IMG/VR virus record: IMGVR_UViG_2654587772_000002
Source of the DNA: a virus
Taxonomy: Duplodnaviria > Heunggongvirae > Uroviricota > Caudoviricetes
Strand: one strand, 5' to 3'
DNA length: 64,000 bases
Both the position numbers and the translations under genes were made by a program. Shown here in pieces: positions 1 through 54,308 of the stretch (positions within the stretch are counted from its first letter, which is position 1; each line of letters begins with the position of its first letter). The notes under the pieces are model-generated. The model was given only the letters and a program-made list of their open reading frames with translations. It ran no database searches and was not told the DNA's origin.

Positions 1-1023
1 TGCCTTACCAGGTCTACCGCATCTTTCAATGCCGCCAGCGCCTTTTTATCGAGGCTATCCGCTGTCTCAATGCCATCAACAATAGTTGTCACAGCCTGCT
101 TGTGCGCTTCTCCTGATAAAGCCTGCATCTGGACAAAATCATTGGCTGCCGCATTAAGCGCCGTCAGAACATTACGCATATCCGGATCAGGTTCTTCTGC
201 AACCATCCTTACCAGGCGCGCATCCTTATATGCCTTGGCAAAGATCGCGTTTTGTATACGGTCTACAAGTTGCCGCGTTGGTCGCCCATCTTCCGTTACA
301 AGGCCAGCAGCCTGTGTGGCACCAACTTGCGTCATGAATCCGCGAATAAACGCGTCATTACTGCGGCTAAGCAGATCTCCACTTTCTGACGGGTTAAACA
401 ACGCCATCATCGCCGGTGTTATGCTGTCGGCATCAACAAAAGCCTTTTCACTGGCTGCCATTTCCTGGAGATCAGAAATATTTGAGTCCTTGGCAAACTG
501 AACACGGTCAGCCTTCGTTAACCGGCGGCGCACCAGTACCGGAGCCGTCATTGATTCAACCTTTTCAGGCCGTATGCCGAATTCGGTCGCATGTTCAATC
601 AGGTACTCCCGATACCGATCCGCATTACCGTCCTGATAGGCTTTAATGATCCCCATGGTCCGCCCATTACCTGACTCAACGGCATTGTCCTCACCAATTA
701 TTGGCGCGCCATGGCTGGATAAACCGGAATCGGTAAGCTGGGCAGGACGCAAATCCTTGGATATCTGGTTGACCTGAAGAAGGCTGGATGCGCGGGTCCG
801 GTCGCGCGGCTGAAGTTCCTGGGGATAGTCTGGATTAATTTTCCCATCCAGAGTATTGGATACCAAAAGAACTGAGGCATCGACGATATCAAACGCTGTT
901 TTTACCTCGTCTCCCTTCGCTGTCACCACATACGAAACCCGCCCGTAATCGGGCAGGTTTTTTAGCAGCTCGATCAGCGTTTCTATGCTGGTGGCCATCA
1001 CCACCTGATCGCTTAAGCTCATC
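1..1023 (-). CDS. Hypothetical protein, N-terminal 341 codons only (gene runs off the window start); possibly a P1 DdrB-like virion protein
   Basis: My own minus-strand translation from an ATG at 1021-1023 appears open to position 1. It is not in the ORF track, which seems to list only complete ORFs. It lies directly downstream of the 121-aa gene. Product assignment is speculative. Confidence 0.4.
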
Positions 1024-1034
1024 CCTGTTACGCC

Positions 1035-1400
1035 TTATGCTGCCTCTTTAATGTTGGCGGCTATCCATGCCGCCGTGTGCTGTTTAACCTGGTCCAGATC
1101 GATGTATGTGCCAACATATTGACTCAAGTCCTGCAACGTACCGATAAATGCATCGGTGCTCTGATCGACGAATTTATCAGCCAGGAAATCAGCAACCAGT
1201 TTTGGCACACCATCATGTACCGAAGGTTGTTTTTCCTCGCCACTACCGCCGCCGGACGCGCCGTACCCCATCTGTTGCATGATCTGGTCAATTTCATCGC
1301 TGATATCCAGCAACTCCATGCCACTCGCGGTAGCCGCTTTGGACATCAGAGCATCCAACTTATCGCTGAGATCCATTAACTCAATAGCTGATAGTGTCAT
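1035..1400 (-). CDS. Small acidic hypothetical protein (121 aa); possibly DdrA-like
   Basis: ORF track. Overlaps the upstream 639-aa gene by 4 nt, suggesting operon coupling. No recognisable motif. Confidence 0.55.
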   Translation of the reverse strand: MTLSAIELMDLSDKLDALMSKAATASGMELLDISDEIDQIMQQMGYGASGGGSGEEKQPSVHDGVPKLVADFLADKFVDQSTDAFIGTLQDLSQYVGTYIDLDQVKQHTAAWIAANIKEAA

Positions 1401-3316
1401 GCCGCTACCCCCGCTTTCTGGATTGCTACCAGCAGATCAGCCAGGTGGCGAGCTGCGCCGTTAACCAGCTCTTCGTTTTCCTCAAAACGTCCGGCAGCCT
1501 GAAGGGCTGCAATCGCTTCCCGGACATTGCCCCGGGCGTTACGGATCTCCGCCATGTCAGTGCTTTGTATATCCATCACGTTATTGAGATATTCAATGGC
1601 TTTATTAGCCTCTGCATCTGCTTCGCTAACCGTTTCATCAGGCTGTGCCGGGGCCGGTTCTGGCTGAGTAATCTCACCGACTTCGGCCTGCAATGCATTG
1701 ATCATGCTCTGCACCATTTTCTCGGTGCCAGCGCCCCCAGGAAACGCAATATTGGGGAAAGTTTTTTGAAACTGAGTTTTCAGCATTACGCGGAACTCGT
1801 CTGGTGAGCTGGTGGCCAGCTCCAGAGCTTTTTGTGCATATTTGCCAAACGGACCATTAGTAAGTGTCTTCGCCAGGAAGTCGAAAGAATCCTCGCGAGG
1901 CAATAACTTCAGGTCGTACTCACTCATTTGCTGATCAGAAAGCGGGGTATCGTAAGTAGCAATGCCGTAGCGTGCATATTCATAATACGGGTCACCTTCA
2001 TCAGGGCGCGGCAGAATTGCTTTGTTACCTTCAGGTATTGCGCCAGGGGCCGCCGGACGCATTTGCAGGGCATATCGATATGCACCTACAGAGACTTCTG
2101 GTTCAGGCGAAGAGCTACCGGTATCCTCCGCTGGTTCAGGCTCGACGTTTTCCGGTTTATGTTCTTCTGGTTGGACCAGGTATTCCGATACATTACCCGC
2201 TTTATAGGCTTTAAACAGCTTGCCGATCGCATCTGCCATGTCCACACCCTGTATGGATTTAGCCTTGATCATGTATACGCTGCCATCCGGATCGGTTAAC
2301 TGGATATACCCTTCGCCGCCCCCAATGAATTGCTTCATTGATGCACCATTACTGAGCGTCACTTCCCCGTCCATATGCATACGATTTTTGATACTGGCAA
2401 GGCGATCCGTCAGCGCGCGAGAGTGCCCACCAGTCATCCCCGCTGGAGCAATGGTATCGCGCCCACCAGTGCGATTGAGCTGATCAATCTCCGTCTGCAA
2501 ACGCTCATTCTCTTCATAAAGAGAATCCGCTTCCGATGCAACAGCGTTAATTTTCTGCTCCAGATCTGCCTTCTGCCCTTCTACCGCTGCCACCTGATCC
2601 GCGAGGTCGCTCATGGCATCCTCTTTCTGGTCACTGTCAGCCTGTAGTTGGGTTATTTCATCAACAAGGGCTTTTTTCTTCTTCTGCGCACGCTGGAATT
2701 TTGCCGAGTTTTTCTCTGCAAGGTTGGCAAGTTTCATGGTGACCTGCGCCAGCGTCATATCACGTCCACTCATCGGAGCAACGGTGTGAGTAACGTCTTT
2801 TTTATTCAGTAAGAACTGGAAAGCAACCAGCGTATCGCTATTGGTGATCCGGTTTTCCGCTGTCGGGCTATGAAACAGAATGCTGATAGTCTGACCATCA
2901 CTGAGCGGAATAATGGCTGGCAGGACTGGCAGCCCGTTAACGTTACGTGCCCGGCCAATTTCAGCGCCGCCGATCGCGCGCGCGCCGCTCTGGGCCACAT
3001 CCCCCGTTTTATCACTCCCCGCAGAGATTCCGGTACCATTCAGCTTCTGGTTCAATGCCCGGACAAATGCCTGCATGGTCCGGTGTAACTGCAAACGAGT
3101 AGAACTAATCGCCTCCAATAAATCCGTAGCACACCAGTGGATCGGCGTGTCATAGAAGAACGTTGCCTCGATTTCCTCCAGGGTGTTGGATTCCGTCATC
3201 AGATAGCGGTCCTGACCAGCCATTAATGCGCGATATTCATCATCAGTCACCGGCGGGGGAAGCACGTCAAGCCCCGGCTTAATCGTCACCCCTTTATTGA
3301 TATTGAACTGTTCCAT
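1397..3316 (-). CDS. Large acidic coiled-coil protein (639 aa); possibly DarA-like virion antirestriction protein
   Basis: ORF track. Central coiled-coil with Q/E/K-rich heptads and acidic low-complexity segments. Shares a conserved block (TL..V......KNSAKFQ) with the adjacent 203-aa protein. Size and operon position match what I recall of P1 DarA; unverified. Confidence 0.6.
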   Translation of the reverse strand: MEQFNINKGVTIKPGLDVLPPPVTDDEYRALMAGQDRYLMTESNTLEEIEATFFYDTPIHWCATDLLEAISSTRLQLHRTMQAFVRALNQKLNGTGISAGSDKTGDVAQSGARAIGGAEIGRARNVNGLPVLPAIIPLSDGQTISILFHSPTAENRITNSDTLVAFQFLLNKKDVTHTVAPMSGRDMTLAQVTMKLANLAEKNSAKFQRAQKKKKALVDEITQLQADSDQKEDAMSDLADQVAAVEGQKADLEQKINAVASEADSLYEENERLQTEIDQLNRTGGRDTIAPAGMTGGHSRALTDRLASIKNRMHMDGEVTLSNGASMKQFIGGGEGYIQLTDPDGSVYMIKAKSIQGVDMADAIGKLFKAYKAGNVSEYLVQPEEHKPENVEPEPAEDTGSSSPEPEVSVGAYRYALQMRPAAPGAIPEGNKAILPRPDEGDPYYEYARYGIATYDTPLSDQQMSEYDLKLLPREDSFDFLAKTLTNGPFGKYAQKALELATSSPDEFRVMLKTQFQKTFPNIAFPGGAGTEKMVQSMINALQAEVGEITQPEPAPAQPDETVSEADAEANKAIEYLNNVMDIQSTDMAEIRNARGNVREAIAALQAAGRFEENEELVNGAARHLADLLVAIQKAGVAA

Positions 3317-3317
3317 G

Positions 3318-3929
3318 TTAATTTCCTGCTTTCAGTTGCTTAAGACGGCGTTTGAGTTCGCCATTCCGTGCCTTTTCGTTATTGAGTCGGCCCGTCTCCT
3401 TATCCAACTTCGCCCGCAAATCTGTGATCTGCTGTTGATTGAAAGACACCGAATTCTGCGCGGACTTATAAGCGGCAACCACCTGAGCATTCCGCTGTTT
3501 TGCTTCTTGCAGGCGCTGAAAGTTGGATTTAACTGCCGGTTTCTTGTCTACCGGATTGGCAACACGCTTCGCTTTGGCGATCAGTGATTTCTGGAATTTC
3601 GCAGAGTTTTTGCGGGCCGCTTGCCCCATGACGGTACCAAGCGTCTTGATATCTGGCGACTGTGCGTTAGGAATAGATTTTCCATTCAGTTTCACAGCCG
3701 ATATATCACCAGTATCGTTTACCTGTATGGCAAGAATTTGTCCGTCGTTAAGAACCAGTTTTGCGGTTTTAACTTTAACGCCATCTTTCGTTGTTGCGCG
3801 GTTGCTGGAGTCAACCTCAATTACCGTAACACCGGTTTTATTGATCGCCGCGATAAGGGATTTCAGCCCCTTTTCATTAACCTGGTCAAAATCGACCGTT
3901 GCATACTTATTTTTCGTCATCTGACACAT
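3318..3929 (-). CDS. Hdf-like protein (203 aa), homologous over about 60 aa to part of the downstream 639-aa protein
   Basis: ORF track. Shared motif ..DGQ.L.I.....NSAKFQ followed by a basic coiled-coil tail in both proteins. Confidence 0.6.
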   Translation of the reverse strand: MCQMTKNKYATVDFDQVNEKGLKSLIAAINKTGVTVIEVDSSNRATTKDGVKVKTAKLVLNDGQILAIQVNDTGDISAVKLNGKSIPNAQSPDIKTLGTVMGQAARKNSAKFQKSLIAKAKRVANPVDKKPAVKSNFQRLQEAKQRNAQVVAAYKSAQNSVSFNQQQITDLRAKLDKETGRLNNEKARNGELKRRLKQLKAGN

Positions 3930-4778: not shown

Positions 4779-5650
4779 GTGCGCCCAGCATGGGCGCGAT
4801 CTTGGAGGTGAAAGCCCTCCCGCGAGCTGACCACAGCGAGCGAAAGGAAGTGCAACTGCGTGAGGGCGGCTAGGCGTGGGGAGGAAGCACGGAATGAACC
4901 CGTGAGCCGATGAACAAGAATCGGATATGAGGCGCGATGGAGCAAGGCGAGCAGGCACATCACTGCGAAGCTTTCGTGACAAAGTCGCGTAGATCCGACG
5001 GTTGTGCGGGGAAGGATCGCGTTCTTACCTGGGGAGTTCTCGCCTCATGCCTGAAAGGGCAACGTCGTAAGACGGAGCGAGAAGTCAGCAGAGGCCGTAG
5101 TAGTCAGGACTCCGACGAAGGGCCGAACGAGAAGGAAAGCCAAAAGATATGACTCTTGACAGGACATTGCGTCAGAAGCCGGGGAAGCCCGGTACGGACC
5201 CGCATGCCGGGTGGTGTGGCAGGGGCGCAGCCTTGTGCTCCCCCCTATGCCGATCAAGCAGAACATTGTGCTGGGCCTCTGACGCATCTCCTTGATGGTC
5301 TTGGCATCGTGCTTAAGTGGATTGGTGTCGTCTCTGATAGGCTCATGGAGGCAGAATGAAACTCAAAAATCCGGGACAGCACGCAAAACAGGCTGCACAA
5401 AAAGCGCAGGTTGCGTAGGAGTGGAATCCCGCTCCCAAAAAATGGTGCAGAAGTTGCGGCAGTGGTCATCCGACGCACTGGAAAATAACAAACCCGCCGT
5501 GACCAGAATCGGAGGCCTGAGGGAGTGACCGTAAAACCGGATAACCCAGGCAGCAAATACCCGCTGGATGAGGCATGGTTCCGGCAGATAATACCGAAAA
5601 CCGCCAGACACACTGGATAATCAGTAGAAATAACCCATTAAAATCATTAT
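4779..5650 (+). mobile_element. GC-rich non-coding region with a group II intron-like 5' end (GUGCG plus first stem); possibly an ORF-less or degenerate intron; 3' boundary unknown
   Basis: GTGCGCCCAGCATGGGCGCG at about 4779 resembles the canonical group II 5' end and first domain I hairpin. An 8-bp hairpin (CCTCCACG...CGTGGAGG) lies just upstream. No long ORF on either strand and no reverse transcriptase. I could not identify a canonical domain V by eye. Confidence 0.3.
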
Positions 5651-5674
5651 AATAATTGGGCACATTATTATATT

Positions 5675-6238
5675 ATGCTGAATAATAGAGACATGAATAT
5701 TAATGAACTTAAAGACTGTATTCACTATGAAGTAATCGGTAGCGAGCGTCCTTTCTCCTGGCGAAAGGCAATTGTTCGCGCAATAAAACATAGAAGAGTT
5801 CGTTATTTATTTTGGTGGCGCATAGCCAAATACCTTTTTGATAAAGGCGGATACTGTCGGAAGATTGCGGGGAAAATGGAACGTTTCATTCTTGATAAAT
5901 ATAGTGTAACAGTCCCTTTAACTGTAAATATAGGGAAAGGCTTTGATATTTCTTATCTCAACGGTGTTGTTATCGGTCACAAAGTAACCATTGGTGAAAA
6001 TTGTTCAATAAAACCAGGGGTAACTATTGGGCTACGTGGTGATTTTAATGATATGGATATTGTTATAGGACATAATGTGACCATTGGTTGTAATGCCACC
6101 ATTCTTGGTGGCAAAGTGCGTATAGGAAACAATGTCACAATAGGTGCTCATGCATTGGTATTGCATGATATTCCTGATGATTCAACATTCATCACTAAAT
6201 TTCAGTCTGAAGTTATCTGCTCGTCCTCTTGCACATAA
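5675..6238 (+). CDS. Hexapeptide-repeat acetyltransferase, serine O-acetyltransferase (CysE)-like
   Basis: Tandem [LIV]-G-x-x-x-x hexapeptide repeats ([21 protein letters not shown]...[32 protein letters not shown]) after a CysE-like N-terminal helical segment. AT-rich, and on the opposite strand to the flanking phage genes. Confidence 0.8.
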
Positions 6239-45766: not shown

Positions 45767-46162
45767 CTAACCTCGCATGTCAAAGCCAGATTTCTGAAAA
45801 TCTCTGTAGACTTCCGGATTGTTGAAGGCCGGAAATTTGGCTTTATGAGCTGCGGACTTTATCGCTTCGCAATAGGCTTTATCACCGTTACTGGTAGATA
45901 TTTTTAACGCCGTACCATCCTGAGAGAATTCCATATGCAACCTGCATTTTTTCCCTTTCCAGTTATGCGGCTCATCAAGTTTGGCATTAATTGCAGCTCT
46001 GATTCCCCGCGCTTGCGCCCCCCATTCATCCTGATCATCCCAGCGTCCTGAACTGCAACTACCTGTAGCAGTAGTTTTGTGGCAATCTGAAGGGTGTAAA
46101 GGTGTGCATCCCGCAACAAAACCGACCCAAAAAGTCAACATAACGATTTTCTTTAATCCCAC
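45767..46162 (-). CDS. Lipoprotein with a TolA C-terminal-like domain (paralog 2, 131 aa)
   Basis: Signal peptide with lipobox FVAGC. Motifs WKGKKCRLHMEF and NPEVYRDFQ parallel those of the neighbouring paralog and of TolA domain III. Confidence 0.75.
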   Translation of the reverse strand: MGLKKIVMLTFWVGFVAGCTPLHPSDCHKTTATGSCSSGRWDDQDEWGAQARGIRAAINAKLDEPHNWKGKKCRLHMEFSQDGTALKISTSNGDKAYCEAIKSAAHKAKFPAFNNPEVYRDFQKSGFDMRG

Positions 46163-46312: not shown

Positions 46313-46741
46313 TCAGGGTTTAAAATCCAGCACCCCATTTTGAAATACTTTATATACTTCCGGCGAAGGGGGGGCAGGTATATCAGCATTCTTTATCGCA
46401 TTCATCGCTTCACGACATAAATCGAGGTCTCCACTTTCTCTTTTAACCTCCAGTAGAAGGCCATTCGGGGCCATATGCATTCTCAGTGTACACTCTTTTC
46501 CTGAATACTTACTCGCATCCCCGAACTGTTTTTCGATGGCGCTCTTGATTTGATGGGCATACAGACGGATATCCTCACTAACATCAGAAGTACGTTCAGA
46601 TGAACTCACATACTGTGTCTCTATTGCTTTATCGGAGTAATATGATGTACGGTCATGATAATTTGTCGATACAGCATCAGTGCACCCGATAATAATCCCA
46701 CTAATAATCAACGTAAGAATTGATGCGCTACGAAAACCCAT
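46313..46741 (-). CDS. Lipoprotein with a TolA C-terminal domain III-like domain (paralog 1, 142 aa)
   Basis: Signal peptide with lipobox IIIGC. C-terminal 85 aa (YAHQIKSAIEKQFGDASKYSGKECTLRMHMAPNGLLLEVKRESGDLDLCREAMNAIKNADIPAPPSPEVYKVFQNGVLDFKP) aligns almost motif-for-motif with the E. coli TolA C-terminus as I recall it. Confidence 0.8.
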   Translation of the reverse strand: MGFRSASILTLIISGIIIGCTDAVSTNYHDRTSYYSDKAIETQYVSSSERTSDVSEDIRLYAHQIKSAIEKQFGDASKYSGKECTLRMHMAPNGLLLEVKRESGDLDLCREAMNAIKNADIPAPPSPEVYKVFQNGVLDFKP

Positions 46742-49214: not shown

Positions 49215-49632
49215 TTCTCAATCTCTCGATGGCGCAGTGCAGCAGATGCCAGTTGTTCAAGCTAGCACGCAAATTGTAAACCAGAATGCCAGGAAAAAAC
49301 AAAACCCGCCGAAGCTGGTTGTGTGCGGTTGCGTTGAAGTCTCCTAGCCAAAGAGTAGCGGTGACCACTCCCCGCCGATAATCTTAGTTGTTTAATTTCG
49401 TAAGCTAACTAGGCTAAAAGCTCTCTGTTGTCTGCCTGTTGTACAATTAACAAAATGAACAACGAACTAGATATACCAACGCCAGAATGGTGCAACAAAT
49501 CCCAAACAACACAGCAATGCAACAATAACATATGTTATTTTCCTCTCACGGGATTCAGTCCTGAATTCTCATAAAGCTAATCTTTTTTTAAAAACATACT
49601 GTTAGATCACATGCACTTTCTTTCTTAACATC

Positions 49633-49660
49633 GTTGACTTCGCATGCGAAGCGTTTAAAA
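49633..49660 (+). promoter_or_regulatory. Candidate sigma70 promoter with a 14-bp perfect palindrome in the spacer, upstream of the GHKL ATPase gene (approximate position)
   Basis: TTGACT, 16 bp, TAAAAT. The spacer contains CTTCGCATGCGAAG. Lies about 55-80 nt upstream of the ATG at 49714. Confidence 0.45.
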
Positions 49661-49713
49661 TCAACAATTTGCACTTAAGGTATTTATTTTCCCAAACACA
49701 TAGAGAGTAAATT

Positions 49714-51105
49714 ATGACTGAGAACACGACTCCAACAGCAGACTTTAGTCCTAGTAAAAGATTTTTTGTGAGTATGCTAACTCGAGATATCGACTTAAAC
49801 GATGCCATACTTGATCTGCTTGATAACTGCGTCGATGGGGCTTTACGTACAATAAAAGACACAAAAAAAACTTCAAAACCATATGAAGGATTTTATGCGA
49901 AACTTACGATTAATAAAGATGTCTTTATTATAGAAGACAATTGCGGAGGTATCCCTAAAAGCTTCCGAGAATATGCTTTTAAAATGGGACGACCCCATCA
50001 AAAAGAAGAAGAAAATGAAGGCACCGTTGGCGTCTATGGTATTGGTATGAAAAGAGCCATTTTTAAAATGGGTAGAGATTGCTCAATACAATCGAATAAT
50101 CCCGATGGCGCATTCACTGTAGATATAACACCTGATTGGATCGATGGTGATGGTTGGAAAATACCGATGCACGAGAGTGACTATGATAACAAAAATCCAA
50201 CAGGCACAACTATAGAGATAAAAAAACTCCATTCTAATGTGGCACAAAAATTTAATGAGAGCACATATCTTACTGATCTCTTTTTACAGATAAAACACTC
50301 ATTGTCATTTATTATTCAAAAAGGATTTAAAATAGAATTAAATGGAGTTGTTGTTGAACATAATCCGATTAACATCATAACTGATCATTCTAAAATAGAA
50401 CCATACATATATAAAGCTAAAATAGACGATGTTGATATCGATTTAGTTGTTGGCTTCTATAAAAATTTAGAAGATGACAATGATGATGTTTTAGAAAAAA
50501 GGAGTTCTGATGATGCTGGATGGACTGTCATTTGCAATGACCGCGTTGTTCTATATTGTGATAAGACACATCTCACAGGTTGGGGCTTTGCTAATGTACC
50601 AAGGTTTCATACCCAATTTATAGCAATTTCTGGGGTTGTTCGCTTTACCAGTAAAAACCCAGAAAAATTACCAATAACAACAACGAAACGAGGTGTCGAT
50701 CTTAGTTCTACATTGTACAATGATGTACGAAATAAAATGATTGAAGGGATGATGCATTTTATTCGATTCACCAATCAGTGGAAAGGTGAGCATCTTGAAG
50801 AAGGGAAAAAATTACTTAAGTCAGCTCAGTCACATGAAGCTCAATCTTTATTTGAAATTACCCCACAATCAACTCCAGAAGATAAAAAAAATAACTGGTC
50901 CAACCCTAATAGAAACAAAAATGAGTGGCGATATACACCTAAGCTGCCTACCCCAGTAAAAAAAAGCTCTACTGTACGAATAATCTTCACCAGAGAGAAA
51001 GAAGATGTTAAAATTTTATCTAAATATTTCTTTGGACATGAAGATGCTAGCGCTTCTGATGTGGGGATGCAATGCTTTGATACGGTGATTGAAGAGGTGA
51101 AGTGA
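49714..51105 (+). CDS. GHKL-family (histidine kinase / MutL / MORC-like) ATPase, 463 aa
   Basis: Bergerat-fold motifs in order: N-box LDLLDNCVDGA, G1-box IIEDNCGGIP, G2-box GTVGVYGIGMKRAIF. AT-rich. No histidine-kinase dimerisation domain and no receiver domain recognised. Confidence 0.9.
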   Translation: MTENTTPTADFSPSKRFFVSMLTRDIDLNDAILDLLDNCVDGALRTIKDTKKTSKPYEGFYAKLTINKDVFIIEDNCGGIPKSFREYAFKMGRPHQKEEENEGTVGVYGIGMKRAIFKMGRDCSIQSNNPDGAFTVDITPDWIDGDGWKIPMHESDYDNKNPTGTTIEIKKLHSNVAQKFNESTYLTDLFLQIKHSLSFIIQKGFKIELNGVVVEHNPINIITDHSKIEPYIYKAKIDDVDIDLVVGFYKNLEDDNDDVLEKRSSDDAGWTVICNDRVVLYCDKTHLTGWGFANVPRFHTQFIAISGVVRFTSKNPEKLPITTTKRGVDLSSTLYNDVRNKMIEGMMHFIRFTNQWKGEHLEEGKKLLKSAQSHEAQSLFEITPQSTPEDKKNNWSNPNRNKNEWRYTPKLPTPVKKSSTVRIIFTREKEDVKILSKYFFGHEDASASDVGMQCFDTVIEEVK

Positions 51106-52094
51106 TGTCTGGACAATACATTCCCTATCACTTAAGGCATAATAAGTCTATTGATAGAGAGATTTTTCTCGAAAGCCTAAACCTCTTAAGCAAAAGACTA
51201 AATATTCAAGAATATACATATATAGGTTTTGGTGGTCCGATGCTTGAAGATTTTAGAATCATGCATAATCGTATCGCTCTTTCTGATATGATTTCTCTCG
51301 AAGAACAAGAGTCTACTCACATCAGACAAAAATATAATTTGCCTTATAATTGTATTGATTGTAAGCTAATATCAGCTCATGACTTTATTCTTGATTATAG
51401 TTTTTCTAAACCATCAATAACATGGTTAGACTATGCCTCCCCGAAAAAAATACAAACGGATCTAGATGATATACACTTACTAAGTACTAAAGTAAGCTCT
51501 TTTGATATTTTGAAGGTCACCTTCCCCATAAATCCTAGTTCTTATTACCAACGTAGAGTTGGAGAAAGTTTAGATATTTTTAAAGAAGCTTTTATTAATT
51601 CATTAAAATCATTGCTTGGGAAAAAGTATCTTGATTTTAATCTTCAGATATCAAATGCAGATCTTTCAGATCGTAAGATTAAAGCTCTTTTAATACGAAT
51701 TATTACAAACGCTTTTAGATCAGCAATAGAACGTGGTCTTTCAGGACGTAAGGATAAGATTCAGTATTACCCATTATCTTTAAATCAATATAATGATGGC
51801 AGTCATACCATGTTGACAATATCAGGTTTTTTCTCCTCAGAACAAGAATATATAGAGTTATCTAAGGCATGCGACCTTTCTAACTGGCAATTTTATTCAA
51901 CAAATTGGGAAGACGTGCAAGAAATAGCAATACCAACACTAACAATTAAAGAAAAGATAAATTTAGATAGTAAACTGCCTGATAAAGAAGCATATCAGGC
52001 AGCCGCTGAAGAGTTCTCTTTAAACGAAAATGAACGGGATAACTATTATAAATACTATAGGTTATACCCTAACTTCCAAAGAATTATGGTTTAA
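51105..52094 (+). CDS. Unknown protein (329 aa), translationally coupled to the GHKL ATPase
   Basis: Start overlaps the upstream stop (TGATG). No recognisable catalytic motif. Its 3' end overlaps the 3' end of the convergent methyltransferase by about 33 nt. Confidence 0.85.
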   Translation: MSGQYIPYHLRHNKSIDREIFLESLNLLSKRLNIQEYTYIGFGGPMLEDFRIMHNRIALSDMISLEEQESTHIRQKYNLPYNCIDCKLISAHDFILDYSFSKPSITWLDYASPKKIQTDLDDIHLLSTKVSSFDILKVTFPINPSSYYQRRVGESLDIFKEAFINSLKSLLGKKYLDFNLQISNADLSDRKIKALLIRIITNAFRSAIERGLSGRKDKIQYYPLSLNQYNDGSHTMLTISGFFSSEQEYIELSKACDLSNWQFYSTNWEDVQEIAIPTLTIKEKINLDSKLPDKEAYQAAAEEFSLNENERDNYYKYYRLYPNFQRIMV

Positions 52095-53213
52095 ATATTC
52101 GGGCTGTACTCTTTTATTTAATAAATTGTACAGCCCCTTTAATATATATTCAGCAACTATTGGTGACACGCTATTTCCTATTTGTCTGAAACTATGCCAT
52201 TTAGTTACATGAAAGCGAAACCAATCAGGGAAGCCTTGTAATCTAGCAGCTTCTCTTGGTGTAATCACTCTTGGATGATAAGGGTGGATCGGCCTGACGG
52301 CTTGAAAGCTTCCTTTATCTCTAGCGGTTCCCGCCCTTAAAGTCGGGCAAAAACCATTTGGATCTAATCTTGTAGATCTTGAAATTTTATCAGTTTCCCC
52401 AAAAGATAAGGAAGCATAACGCTCTTGGACGATTTTGCTATGTAATGTTCCGGTACATCCAGATATGATATTATTTTTTAACTTAGCGATCGATTCTGTA
52501 TCACCAACATTCCGAGGGATCTGCCCCCATAATTTTTCATAAAATCCCCCTTTTCGATCTTTTTTAATTGTTCGCCAACTCTCAGAGTCTGATTGCCAAT
52601 TGGCATCGATAATATCTGGTAATCCATACAAAGCATCTTTTACAGTAACCGGATCAATCATTTTAGGCATAAATACTTCATCTGAAATATCAAGCTTCAA
52701 TGATTTTTTTACACCGATAAAAAAATATCTAGTTCGAATAGTTGGAGCACCATAATCAGATGCTTTTACCTTGATGGGATCAAGAATATCATAATCACCG
52801 CTAACCAAATTAAATGCTTTATTTCTAATGCCAGAATATTTCTCTTGCATAATACCTGGAACATTTTCTGCCAAAAAGAATAATGGCTGTAATTCTGATA
52901 CTAAACGGTAGAAATGCATGTAAAGCTGATTCCTGCTATCATCAGGATTCCCCTTGCCTATTGAACTAAATCCTTGGCACGGAGGACCGCCAATAATACC
53001 ATCTATGGGCATATCGTTTTTAAAAAAACCCTTAATTATTTCTGCATTTAGTAAAGAAACATCTTCTTGGACGTGCAAACTTCTTGGAAAATTAATTGCG
53101 TGAGTATTAATAGCATGTTGATCAATTTCAACTGCCATTTTAACATCAAATCCAGCACGTGCAGCACCAAGACTTAGACCTCCAACGCCAGAAAACAAAT
53201 CTATTACATTCAT
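52062..53213 (-). CDS. DNA (cytosine-5)-methyltransferase, 383 aa
   Basis: Motif I DLFSGVGG, motif IV GGPPCQGFS, motif VI ENV, motif VIII Q.R.R-like. AT-rich. Confidence 0.95.
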   Translation of the reverse strand: MNVIDLFSGVGGLSLGAARAGFDVKMAVEIDQHAINTHAINFPRSLHVQEDVSLLNAEIIKGFFKNDMPIDGIIGGPPCQGFSSIGKGNPDDSRNQLYMHFYRLVSELQPLFFLAENVPGIMQEKYSGIRNKAFNLVSGDYDILDPIKVKASDYGAPTIRTRYFFIGVKKSLKLDISDEVFMPKMIDPVTVKDALYGLPDIIDANWQSDSESWRTIKKDRKGGFYEKLWGQIPRNVGDTESIAKLKNNIISGCTGTLHSKIVQERYASLSFGETDKISRSTRLDPNGFCPTLRAGTARDKGSFQAVRPIHPYHPRVITPREAARLQGFPDWFRFHVTKWHSFRQIGNSVSPIVAEYILKGLYNLLNKRVQPEYLNHNSLEVRV

Positions 53214-53475
53214 ATAGTTGCAACGTCTCTTATTAGTTTCTATGTATTATAACACAACTGTTCTTGATGTTTTAACCCCATAAGATAACCTCATAAAGGC
53301 TATCCCTTGAAAATACCGGATCGCATAAATTTAATCTTTCAAAACTACTTGTCTATTAATCGAGCAATTTAAGGTTTTTTTAGTCATGTCGATACCGACA
53401 TAGTTAACTAAACCCATTTCATCGTCCAACAAATGGGGGTAATACACTTTGATTTATAGTCGGGTGGGTTTTTCT

Positions 53476-53511
53476 CTATCTGCCTTTGGTGTTCATGCCC
53501 AAGGCAGATAG
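53476..53511. repeat. Inverted repeat (11-bp stem, 14-nt loop) upstream of the methyltransferase gene (approximate position)
   Basis: CTATCTGCCTT...AAGGCAGATAG. No flanking T-run on either strand. Confidence 0.5.
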
Positions 53512-53644
53512 CCTCAAGCACCCGCAGCAATTCTACTTAACTATCCTTTTCCCGCAAATCGTTTTTATCCCCAGCGGCAAATCGAATACACAACCAGCGC
53601 CACCGCCATCGCAATTCCTACCGTTGTGAATGCTTCAGTCCAGG

Positions 53645-53902
53645 TCATCGTGAAACATCCTCCACGCTTATAAGTCCGCTTCGCTCCAGGTAGTCCATCA
53701 CTTTATCCGGCAATTTGCAGCCCGGTTTCGCTTTCTTCAGTTGACTAACCAATTGTTTAACCAGCATTGTCAATTCGCGAACTTGTTTCCCGGGCTCCCC
53801 TTTGCCCTGAAGCAGGGCAGCGCGGCAAGCGTTCCATCCCTCAGCATATGTTTCAGTTACACCATCGAGATGGCATGTAAGCAAATCCATTTCTTCCGGC
53901 AC
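53645..53902 (-). CDS. Hypothetical protein (85 aa)
   Basis: ORF track only. Confidence 0.45.
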   Translation of the reverse strand: MPEEMDLLTCHLDGVTETYAEGWNACRAALLQGKGEPGKQVRELTMLVKQLVSQLKKAKPGCKLPDKVMDYLERSGLISVEDVSR

Positions 53903-54308
53903 TACTGGCGCTGGAAAAACGGCATAGGGTGGCGTCCATTTTGGCGCTTTATCTCCAGCCGAACGCTGCTACCAGTCATCCGGTTTGTATTCATAAAAAT
54001 CACCAACTGGCTCTGCTTCCAGCGATGCCAGAGCAATTTTGAATAATTCGCCCTCTACCCGTGCCATCCCTGAATTGGGGTGGCATTTCTCAATCGCTAT
54101 TTTTAATTTAGCTTCTTCGATTAATTGCTTTTTGGTTAATTCAGTCATTTTTCATTACCGCCCTTTCGGGCCGCCTCCTAATATTTTGAGGGTGCAGCCC
54201 CCCCTCCGGTTAAGGATTAAATTTTATTTACAGTGCTAAATTTAATTATTCAGATTTGGATTATGATTTCTCTTTCAGTTCACGCAGTTCCCTGATTGTT
54301 AATTTGGC

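What the first reader, a model, noticed from the sequence alone, without database searches (positions are those of the whole stretch)
49600..53260. AT-rich nin-region island: GHKL ATPase, coupled unknown partner and convergent C5-cytosine methyltransferase; candidate uncharacterised defence or RM-like system
Three genes with markedly lower GC than the flanking phage genes sit between the replication module and the YbcO/Q genes, a known moron hotspot. Gene 1 (463 aa) has an unambiguous Bergerat ATP-binding fold (N, G1 and G2 boxes) but no histidine-kinase dimerisation or receiver domain. Gene 2 (329 aa) starts on the stop of gene 1 (TGATG) and has no motif I recognise. The methyltransferase is convergent and its 3' end overlaps the 3' end of gene 2 by about 33 nt, which suggests co-inheritance as one unit. 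The promoter upstream of gene 1 carries a 14-bp perfect palindrome in its spacer, implying tight repression. GHKL/MORC-like ATPases linked to 5mC methyltransferases have been predicted to act in restriction-type systems, but I do not recognise this pair as a named system.
Basis: partly seen in the sequence, partly recalled or inferred. Interest (0 to 1): 0.9.

Follow-up and report, generated by a model that had tools for sequence, protein, structure and literature searches.

The report
MORC-like ATPase, methyltransferase partner, Dcm cassette
A three-gene cassette in an E. coli prophage (a cytosine DNA methylase, a MORC-like ATPase and a methyltransferase-fold partner) is a widespread, conserved but unnamed module that sits where related phages carry known anti-phage systems, so it is probably a restriction-modification-like defence that lacks a recognisable nuclease.

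Summary
Three AT-rich genes (GC 0.35, flanks 0.45-0.49) lie between the replication and DUF1367/Q-like genes of a Rac-like E. coli prophage.

- **Gene 1** is a GHKL+S5 ATPase whose model is closest to MORC3, SMCHD1 and MORC2.
- **Gene 3** is a Dcm-type methylase essentially identical to PDB 3g7u.

The three genes are one unit. In 80 species-level loci across many phyla, the partner follows the ATPase in 77 and a Dcm of one co-evolving clade is adjacent in 64. Vsr is nearby in 30. No nuclease or helicase is conserved.

The same slot in sibling prophages holds IetAS and a BstA-like gene. A Pseudomonas Pf phage carries the triad in its defence-moron region. PADLOC, NCBIfam and the searchable literature do not name it.

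The most likely reading is a restriction-modification-like defence. Dcm marks self, and the ATPase-partner complex acts on unmethylated DNA, probably without cutting it.

The promoter palindrome is real but not conserved, so repression is unsupported. I rate this a new variant of the paraMORC-linked restriction-modification theme. Its function is untested.

The parts
49264..53400 (.). AT-rich cargo island (moron) in the nin-like region of a Rac-like prophage
   Evidence: GC is 0.347 against 0.447 and 0.494 in the flanks. Homology with sibling prophages that carry other cargo stops at query base 649, which is window base ~49263. The right edge is set only by the GC rise near 53400-53600.
49634..49661 (+). 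Sigma-70-like promoter of the ATPase-partner operon (TTGACT, 16 nt, TAAAAT)
   Evidence: 10 of 12 match in the consensus scan. The -35, -10 and AGAGAG RBS are conserved at the same spacing in relatives whose ATPase is 75-85 % identical, L088-L090.
49638..49651 (.). 14-bp perfect palindrome CTTCGCATGCGAAG, covering the end of the -35 and most of the spacer
   Evidence: Read directly. It is not conserved in L088, L089 or L090. The window holds 4 such palindromes, about chance. No functional claim is supported.
49714..51105 (+). MORC-like (paraMORC-type) GHKL + S5 ATPase, 463 aa
51105..52094 (+). Class I SAM-methyltransferase-fold partner (Pfam PF20553, Methyltransf_35), 329 aa, translationally coupled to the ATPase (TGATG)
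52062..53213 (-). Dcm-type DNA (cytosine-5) methyltransferase, 383 aa, the self-marking component
   Evidence: PF00145 at E 2.6e-61 and PADLOC MTase_II at E 2e-98. It is essentially identical to PDB 3g7u, E 1e-254. Motifs I, IV (PPCQGFS), VI (ENV), VIII, IX and X are conserved. It is adjacent to the pair in 64 of 80 loci and co-evolves with it.
52062..52094 (.). 33-nt overlap of the convergent 3' ends of the partner gene and the methylase gene
   Evidence: The convergent layout occurs in 25 of 80 loci across phyla, and in most of these the 3' ends overlap by 4-92 nt.
53246..53275 (-). Promoter-like site upstream of the methylase (TTAAAA, 18 nt, TG-TATAAT)
   Evidence: 10 of 12 match with an extended -10. 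Function not tested.

Best explanation
The cassette is a self-contained, mobile, restriction-modification-like immunity module of a widespread but unnamed family. It is carried here as a lysogen-expressed moron.

**Shown**
- The three genes form one conserved, co-evolving unit.
- The methylase has every catalytic motif of a C5-cytosine DNA methyltransferase.
- The ATPase is a MORC-like GHKL+S5 protein with intact ATP-binding residues and a conserved N-terminal strap.
- The partner has a class I methyltransferase fold with conserved SAM-pocket motifs.
- No nuclease or helicase is conserved with the triad.

**Inferred**
- Dcm methylates one conserved short sequence in resident DNA and so marks it as self.
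- The ATPase and its partner are made in fixed proportion from overlapping genes and form a complex.
- The fast-evolving partner supplies sequence and methylation-state reading, probably with SAM bound and possibly with methyl transfer.
- On unmethylated sites in incoming DNA, the ATPase dimerises on ATP into a MORC-type clamp.
- The outcome is exclusion of the invader by blocking or chemically marking its DNA rather than by a canonical double-strand cut, as in BREX. Alternatively the complex recruits host nucleases.
- Vsr, present in about 40 % of relatives, offsets the mutational cost of 5-methylcytosine.
For: **Linkage**
- In 80 species-level loci the partner follows the ATPase in 77, mostly with overlapping stop and start codons.
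- A Dcm is directly adjacent in 64, in three layouts, and Vsr is within 3.5 kb in 30.
- These four are the only families conserved within +-5 kb.
- Every partner-containing viral locus that was not cut off by a contig end also has a Dcm.

**Co-evolution**
- In 60 triads, Mantel r is 0.86 for ATPase-partner, 0.53 for ATPase-Dcm and 0.49 for partner-Dcm, all with p <= 5e-4.
- The linked Dcm is one clade, with 48 % mean identity and partly conserved target-recognition residues.

**Location**
- The same slot of sibling Rac-like prophages carries IetA/IetS (E 5e-100 and 1e-65), a BstA-like gene and Hok toxins.
- Pf phage PfAC20 carries the triad at the accessory end, where other Pf phages carry IetAS, Avs or toxin-antitoxin genes.
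- The flanks of the 80 loci are rich in integrases, resolvases and transposases, with some defence genes.

**Analogy**
- A sister architecture pairs a related Dcm with a 560-610 aa GHKL protein. Its C-terminus matches the validated defence protein PD-Lambda-5_A, up to E 2e-23.
- A paraMORC3-type GHKL-nuclease (VcSduA) is an experimentally shown defence that needs ATP hydrolysis.
- GHKL paraMORCs were predicted to act in restriction-modification operons with Dcm and Vsr.

**Folds**.
Against: - No nuclease domain exists in any of the three proteins or in conserved neighbours, so classical restriction cannot be assumed.
- The effector is a methyltransferase fold, for which no defence precedent was found here.
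- Twelve of 80 loci have no Dcm within 8 kb. Ten of these keep the ATPase-partner pair, 8 of them cyanobacterial, and two loci lie close to a contig end. Either a methylase acts in trans or the pair is harmless without it.
- The presumed catalytic base of the ATPase is an invariant Asp rather than the usual Glu.
- No phenotype, methylation motif or interaction has been measured. All functional evidence is contextual.
Confidence: 0.55

Rival explanations
1. An epigenetic maintenance and repair module with no restriction function. The Dcm is an orphan methylase. The MutL/MORC-like ATPase, with the methyltransferase-fold protein as a mismatch or hemimethylation reader, assists very-short-patch repair or helps the methylase work processively.
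Confidence: 0.13
2. A two-methyltransferase DNA modification pathway that serves as anti-restriction for the phage or host. Dcm and the partner, loaded or driven by the ATPase, together write a compound or second methyl mark that protects DNA from foreign restriction enzymes. There is no attack on unmodified DNA.
For: The partner keeps SAM-pocket motifs across phyla, and its nearest folds are nucleic-acid base methyltransferases. Phages often carry protective methylases. The Dcm gene lies on the same strand as the phage genes.
Against: The ATPase-partner operon is antisense to phage transcription and has its own promoter, as expected for lysogen-expressed cargo. Most family members are chromosomal islands, not phages. 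ATP-driven clamps are not known to be needed for protective methylation. The slot is shared with defence systems.
Confidence: 0.12
3. An abortive-infection or addiction module. The ATPase senses infection or loss of methylation and unleashes the partner as a toxic methyltransferase acting on rRNA, tRNA or another host target, which stops growth. Dcm acts as the antidote or stabilising element.
For: The top structural neighbours of the partner are rRNA and tRNA methyltransferases: RsmD-like, Trm1, RlmI/RlmO and RlmJ. The partner evolves fastest, at 33 % mean identity. The partner gene is frameshifted in two loci, L018 and L113, while the Dcm is intact, as happens to toxic genes.
Against: The linked Dcm forms one tightly co-evolving clade, which argues that DNA methylation state is the signal being read. 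The structural matches reflect the minimal Rossmann core and do not identify a substrate. Ten loci keep the pair with no Dcm within 8 kb, although one is a short contig.
Confidence: 0.12
4. Chance juxtaposition: an orphan phage methylase lying next to an unrelated two-gene moron.
For: The genes are on opposite strands, each with its own promoter-like site.
Against: The adjacency recurs in 64 of 80 species-level loci across phyla. The convergent layout recurs in 25 of them, mostly with overlapping 3' ends, and co-evolution is significant.
Confidence: 0.02

Closest known systems
paraMORC/MORC GHKL ATPases in predicted restriction-modification operons (Iyer, Abhiman & Aravind 2008, PMC2292703)
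   Same: GHKL + S5 ATPase with intact motifs, linked to Dcm-type methylases and Vsr, patchy distribution and lateral mobility. [quoted passage not shown] It also fits loci such as L004.
   Different: The paper's text describes partners that are helicases and nucleases (RE-fold, HNH, HKD, TIR). I found no methyltransferase-fold partner in it. Assignment to paraMORC1 could not be checked against reference sequences. The MORC-specific S5 motif was not tested.
Sister architecture: Dcm + 560-610 aa GHKL protein with a PD-Lambda-5_A-like C-terminus
   Same: A related Dcm, a related GHKL+S5 N-terminal half (130-250 bits to my ATPase profile), Vsr often present, and found in viral contigs. In five loci it shares a single Dcm with the ATPase-partner pair.
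   Different: The effector-like domain is fused to the ATPase and matches a validated defence protein. Here the ATPase stops after a short C-terminal extension, and a separate methyltransferase-fold protein takes that place.
VcSduA / Shedu type I-D (paraMORC3 GHKL-nuclease fusion; PMC12137116)
   Same: A GHKL ATPase module thought to act as a dimeric clamp that controls an effector. Defence requires ATP hydrolysis.
   Different: It is a single protein with a DUF4263 PD-(D/E)xK nuclease and no methylase. This cassette has no nuclease domain.
Mza system (MzaB GHKL ATPase; NCBIfam NF041932)
Dcm + HATPase_c_3-HEF_HK + Response_reg_2 + Vsr clusters (Bellieny-Rabelo et al. 2021, PMC8011034) and Ambrosia (bioRxiv 10.1101/2025.09.30.679545)
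   Same: The same operon grammar: methylase, then GHKL protein, then a small partner, then Vsr or a nuclease.
   Different: The proteins differ: a histidine-kinase-like second domain and a receiver-like partner, and Ambrosia has an HNH nuclease and an adenine methylase.
BREX (methylase-based, non-degradative exclusion)
   Same: It works like the model proposed here: self is marked by methylation, and unmethylated phage DNA is blocked without a dedicated nuclease (abstract of PMC11341690; otherwise my own knowledge).
   Different: The proteins are unrelated (PglX N6-adenine methylase, PglZ, BrxC, BrxL). There is no homology.
Eukaryotic MORC2/MORC3 and SMCHD1
   Different: Sequence identity is about 15 %. 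There are no CW, coiled-coil or hinge domains. A silencing role in bacteria is speculation.

Membership tests
GHKL (Bergerat-fold) ATPase with S5 transducer (MutL/MORC/Hsp90/topo II class) | Motif I (acid-x3-Asn), G1 (DxGxG), G2 (Gly-rich lid) and motif IV (GT) | tested here: met
   D34-L-L-D-N38, D75-N-C-G-G, G106-V-Y-G-I-G-M-K113 and G164-T165 are invariant in 50 sequences and at least 95 % conserved in 60 triads. HATPase_c_3 matches at E 2.9e-9. The usual Glu of motif I is Asp here.
GHKL (Bergerat-fold) ATPase with S5 transducer (MutL/MORC/Hsp90/topo II class) | Second domain of S5 fold that supplies a conserved basic residue | tested here: met
MORC family proper (Iyer 2008) | GhXhhpXXRhl motif in the S5 domain | not tested
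   The motif is given. I did not map it onto the alignment, so the protein is filed as MORC-like or paraMORC-type, not as a MORC.
paraMORC1 (Iyer 2008) | [quoted passage not shown] | tested here: inconclusive
   A conserved extension at residues ~330-463 (W356-K357, LPxP 411-414, GxxCF 451-455) is present. Five loci place the pair beside a Dcm + large GHKL gene, and L004 also has HNH_2 upstream. No reference paraMORC1 sequences were available for comparison.
Class I SAM-dependent methyltransferase (Pfam PF20553, Methyltransf_35) | Rossmann-like seven-strand fold with a Gly-rich motif I, an acidic motif II and motif IV after strand 4 | tested here: met
Class I SAM-dependent methyltransferase (Pfam PF20553, Methyltransf_35) | O-methyltransferase activity, as the Pfam and NCBI names state | not testable with these tools
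   The name is a database label. The nearest folds are N- and C-methylating RNA enzymes. Substrate and atom are unknown.
Type II restriction-modification system | A DNA methyltransferase that protects a specific sequence | tested here: met
   The Dcm has all C5-methylase motifs. Its sequence specificity is not known.
Type II restriction-modification system | A cognate endonuclease with a recognisable nuclease catalytic domain | tested here: not met
   No nuclease family or fold appears in either protein. No conserved nuclease neighbour exists except Vsr. It is therefore not filed as a type II system, only as restriction-modification-like.
Mza anti-phage system | An MzaB-family ATPase above the NCBIfam cut-off, with Mza partners | tested here: not met
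   12.4 bits against a cut-off of 850. No PADLOC hit. No further conserved partners.
Shedu type I-D / paraMORC3 | GHKL domain fused to a DUF4263 PD-(D/E)xK nuclease | tested here: not met
   The only Pfam domain is HATPase_c_3. The C-terminal part has no nuclease-fold match.
Dcm-Vsr very-short-patch repair pair | A Vsr endonuclease gene linked to the methylase | tested here: not met
   No Vsr homologue occurs anywhere in the window. One is present in 30 of 80 related loci.

The most novel reading that the evidence does not exclude
The triad is an immune system whose effector is not a nuclease. It would be a MORC-type ATP-driven DNA clamp coupled to an active methyltransferase. It would recognise DNA lacking the resident 5-methylcytosine mark and inactivate it by compaction or blockage, or by writing a replication-blocking methyl lesion. 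That would make it a prokaryotic counterpart, and possible ancestor, of the eukaryotic link between cytosine methylation and MORC/SMCHD1 silencing.
Probability: 0.2. Interest if true: 0.9.

Novelty: new variant of a known kind. Interest (0 to 1): 0.7.

Why it matters
- **Prevalence.** If the triad is a defence system, it is a common one that current catalogues miss. ATPase relatives occur in 362 of about 100,000 species genomes. The partner family has about 2,100 clusters at 50 % identity. The cassette is in 173 of 5,426 complete E. coli genomes, including O157:H7 and O111. One paper has already scored it as an 'incomplete RM system'.
- **Mechanism.** It would show how self/non-self discrimination by cytosine methylation can work without a nuclease. 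It would also give a tractable bacterial model for how MORC-type ATPases read DNA methylation, which is an open question in eukaryotic silencing.
- **Screening.** From my own knowledge, K-12 hosts with McrBC, McrA or Mrr attack foreign 5-methylcytosine patterns. Functional screens in such hosts may therefore have missed this family systematically. PD-Lambda-5 already needed an mrr-deleted host.

Tried and rejected
- **Defence catalogues.** PADLOC v2 and NCBIfam gave nothing for the ATPase or the partner beyond a 12-bit MzaB match.
- **Solved structures by sequence.** Nothing was found for the ATPase or the partner. Profile searches gave only marginal MORC3/4 hits and a spurious HMG-CoA synthase hit.
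- **Literature.** No paper describes the triad. The CP-933R transcriptome and RpoS papers gave nothing I could tie to these genes.
- **Palindrome as operator or methylase site.** Rejected as a family feature. It is not conserved in close relatives and no shared palindrome lies upstream of the ATPase across phyla. The repeat finder missed it because its arms are only 7 bp.
- **A fifth conserved gene.** Clustering all flanking ORFs found only the four families plus antisense shadow ORFs.
- **Domain fusions of the partner.** The top 150 of 2,128 representative hits are all standalone proteins of 256-381 aa, nearly all 300-380 aa.
- **Weak Pfam similarities of the partner.** At E <= 10 there were no other methyltransferase families, only two chance non-methyltransferase matches.
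- **Sequenced phages.** Megablast found none. tblastn found only PfAC20, plus two plasmids.
- **Not attempted or not possible.**
  - I did not determine the Dcm recognition sequence.
  - I could not check whether Dcm-less cyanobacterial genomes hold the methylase elsewhere.

Full report
**What is there.** The window carries a Rac-like lambdoid prophage of E. coli. It is 100 % identical to strain ST2747 over the region, and the phage genes lie on the minus strand. Three ORFs lie between the replication genes (ydaV, DUF1627, DUF977) and DUF1367/DUF1364/DUF1133:
- 49714-51105 + (463 aa)
- 51105-52094 + (329 aa)
- 52062-53213 - (383 aa)

Cassette GC is 0.347, against 0.447 and 0.494 in the flanks. 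The first two genes share TGATG. The second and third converge and overlap by 33 nt. A good sigma-70-like promoter (TTGACT-16-TAAAAT, 49634-49661) precedes gene 1, and another (TTAAAA-18-TG-TATAAT) precedes the methylase. The palindrome CTTCGCATGCGAAG sits at 49638-49651.

**What the proteins are.**

*Gene 3 (methylase).* It is a complete C5-cytosine DNA methylase (PF00145 at E 2.6e-61; motifs I, IV, VI, VIII, IX and X). It is essentially identical to PDB entry 3g7u. From memory only, 3g7u is a structural-genomics entry for a CP-933R prophage protein of EDL933. I found no paper on it.

**The three genes are one unit.**

I scanned one genome per species with the ATPase alignment and found 362 relatives. 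The best 80 span Cyanobacteria, Nitrospirota, Chloroflexi, Firmicutes, Planctomycetes, many Proteobacteria and a Methanoregulaceae archaeon.

I then scanned those loci with my own profiles:
- The PF20553 gene lies directly downstream of the ATPase in 77 of 80, with overlapping stop and start codons in most.
- A Dcm is directly adjacent in 64. It lies upstream on the same strand in 33, convergent downstream in 25 (in most of these the 3' ends overlap by 4-92 nt, as here), and downstream on the same strand in 6. Another 4 have one elsewhere in the flank.
- Vsr lies within 3.5 kb in 30.

Clustering every flanking ORF found no other conserved family, and in particular no nuclease or helicase.

Across 60 complete triads the three proteins co-evolve. 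Mantel r is 0.86 for ATPase-partner, 0.53 for ATPase-Dcm and 0.49 for partner-Dcm, all with p <= 5e-4. Mean pairwise identity is 46 % for the ATPase, 48 % for the Dcm and 33 % for the partner. A mean of 48 % across phyla, with conserved residues inside the variable target-recognition region, suggests one methylase clade with the same or a similar target sequence. That 'frozen' pattern is what I would expect if a separate protein had to recognise the same site.

Seventy-three IMG/VR viral contigs carry relatives. Every partner-containing locus that was not cut off by a contig end also has a Dcm. The partner family has 2,128 clusters at 50 % identity, and the top 150 are all standalone proteins.

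**Context points to defence.**

The cassette is present at 99 % identity or more in 173 of 5,426 complete E. coli genomes, including O157:H7 and O111. Its proteins also occur in Salmonella and Klebsiella.

The same three-gene cassette, with an ATPase 75-85 % identical, sits at the same nin-like position of a lambda-O/P-type prophage (L088). It also sits in a non-phage spot beside a resolvase in Enterobacter (L089). A third relative (L090) lies in another prophage, but its contig ends inside the partner gene.

Homology between this prophage and its siblings breaks about 50 bp beyond the DUF1367 start codon. The slot beyond the break holds different cargo in each sibling:
- IetA + IetS (PADLOC E 5e-100 and 1e-65)
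- a BstA-like KilA-N protein plus Hok
- an Sll1717-family P-loop ATPase
- hokD

The only sequenced phage isolate with the ATPase is Pseudomonas inovirus PfAC20. Its ORF1-3 are ATPase, partner and Dcm, at the accessory end where other Pf phages carry IetAS, Avs or toxin-antitoxin genes. The authors scored it as an incomplete RM system with only a methylase.

Immediate neighbours in the 80 loci are heterogeneous. They include integrases, resolvases, transposases and a few defence genes. This is what a self-contained mobile island looks like.

**Relation to known systems.**

Iyer et al. (2008) predicted that MORC and paraMORC GHKL ATPases work in restriction-modification operons with Dcm and Vsr. 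Their paraMORC1 description fits this protein, but I could not test membership.

A sister architecture turned up in my loci: a Dcm plus a 560-610 aa GHKL protein. Its C-terminal ~200 residues match the validated defence protein PD-Lambda-5_A, up to E 2e-23. It occurs alone (L157-L162). It also occurs beside the ATPase-partner pair, sharing a single Dcm, in L004, L022, L043, L065 and L079. By displacement logic, the methyltransferase-fold partner occupies the place of an effector or recognition domain.

A paraMORC3-type GHKL-nuclease fusion (VcSduA, Shedu) is an experimentally shown defence that needs ATP hydrolysis. Mza, Ambrosia and the HEF_HK/Response_reg_2 clusters share the grammar but not the proteins.

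PADLOC v2, NCBIfam and ten literature searches do not name this triad. Database names are generic.

**Most likely mechanism (confidence 0.55).**

I read the cassette as a restriction-modification-like module:
- Dcm marks resident DNA.
- The translationally coupled ATPase-partner complex reads the same sites. The variable partner supplies sequence and methylation-state reading, with SAM bound.
- On unmethylated incoming DNA, the ATPase closes as an ATP-dependent MORC-type clamp.
- Because no nuclease is present, the outcome is probably non-degradative exclusion (BREX-like), a chemical mark, or recruitment of host nucleases.
- Where present, Vsr limits 5-methylcytosine mutagenesis.

The gene linkage, folds, motifs and hotspot context are shown. 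The complex, the reading of methylation and the effect on phage are inferred.

The main difficulties are:
- There is no nuclease.
- There is no precedent for a methyltransferase effector.
- Ten loci, 8 of them cyanobacterial, keep the pair with no Dcm within 8 kb.

Rivals: a repair or epigenetic accessory of Dcm-Vsr (0.13), a two-methylase protective modification pathway (0.12), an abortive-infection or addiction module with a toxic methyltransferase (0.12), and chance juxtaposition (0.02, refuted).

**What is not supported.** The -35, -10 and RBS are conserved in L088-L090, but the palindrome is degenerate there. No common palindrome precedes the ATPase in other phyla. The window contains four 14-bp perfect palindromes, about the chance number. 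'Tight repression' is therefore unsupported.

**Verdict.** This is a real, well-delimited, widely conserved and apparently uncharacterised system. It is a new variant of the paraMORC-linked restriction-modification theme, notable for a methyltransferase-fold partner in place of a nuclease. Interest is 0.7. Function remains to be tested.

Noticed in passing
window 49524-49539: A second, longer perfect palindrome (AATAACATATGTTATT, 16 bp) lies about 175 bp upstream of the ATPase start, in the non-coding stretch between DUF1367 and the cassette promoter.
   Followed up: partly
window 45767-46162 and 46313-46741 (- strand): Two small ORFs with lipoprotein-like N-termini lie between the Q-like gene and the lysis genes. 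In the identical ST2747 record they are annotated as TolA C-terminal-domain proteins. They may be phage-borne TolA mimics, for example for exclusion of Tol-dependent phages or colicins. One is truncated in a sibling prophage.
   Followed up: no
L157-L162; L004 8672-10498; L022 11752-13443; L043 11609-13327; L065 10457-12220; L079 1460-3187: A sister system: a Dcm plus a 560-610 aa GHKL ATPase whose C-terminal ~200 residues match PD-Lambda-5_A (up to E 2e-23), often with Vsr. In five loci it lies beside the ATPase-partner pair with only one Dcm between them, which suggests two effector arms sharing one methylase.
   Followed up: partly
L038 7977-9428, L070 3988-5469, L086 7956-9431: Three cyanobacterial ATPase relatives lack the PF20553 partner. 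They are instead preceded by three small ORFs conserved among the three loci. Two are followed by a longer (~430-445 aa) Dcm-like gene. This may be a different sub-architecture.
   Followed up: no
L009, L010, L017, L020, L024, L025, L040, L058: Cyanobacterial copies of the ATPase-partner pair have no Dcm within 8 kb. In Scytonema and Nostoc the pair is inserted between Proton_antipo_M-family (NADH:quinone oxidoreductase/antiporter) genes. Whether a matching methylase acts in trans is unknown.
   Followed up: no
L018 9440-10442; L113 7220-8213: The PF20553 gene is split into two ORFs (apparent frameshift) while the neighbouring ATPase and Dcm are intact. This is the decay pattern expected for a costly or toxic component.
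   Followed up: no
L164 (Pseudomonas phage PfAC20, PP058144) 280-3711 and 5438-6082: A filamentous Pf prophage carries the triad as ORF1-3 and also a second, short 'DNA cytosine methyltransferase' (ORF9, 214 aa) in its core region.
   Followed up: partly
L166 6031-9404; L167 7540-8313; L165 6289-8358: The slot between the replication genes and DUF1367 in sibling Rac-like prophages carries IetAS, a BstA-like KilA-N gene plus Hok, or an Sll1717-family P-loop ATPase that only weakly matches PADLOC candidate PDC-M36A. The slot could be mined for further systems.
   Followed up: partly
window 53645-54148 (- strand); L001 16408-16749: Just beyond the methylase, the identical ST2747 record annotates two pseudogene fragments (internal stop, truncated). 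This suggests the cassette insertion or later decay disrupted neighbouring phage genes.
   Followed up: no
H22, NZ_CP102847.1 (Microvirga terrae plasmid) 96354-97754: A 38 % identical ATPase relative lies on a 238-kb plasmid. The feature list under the match also names a type IIL MmeI-like restriction-modification enzyme, another defence-type neighbourhood.
   Followed up: no
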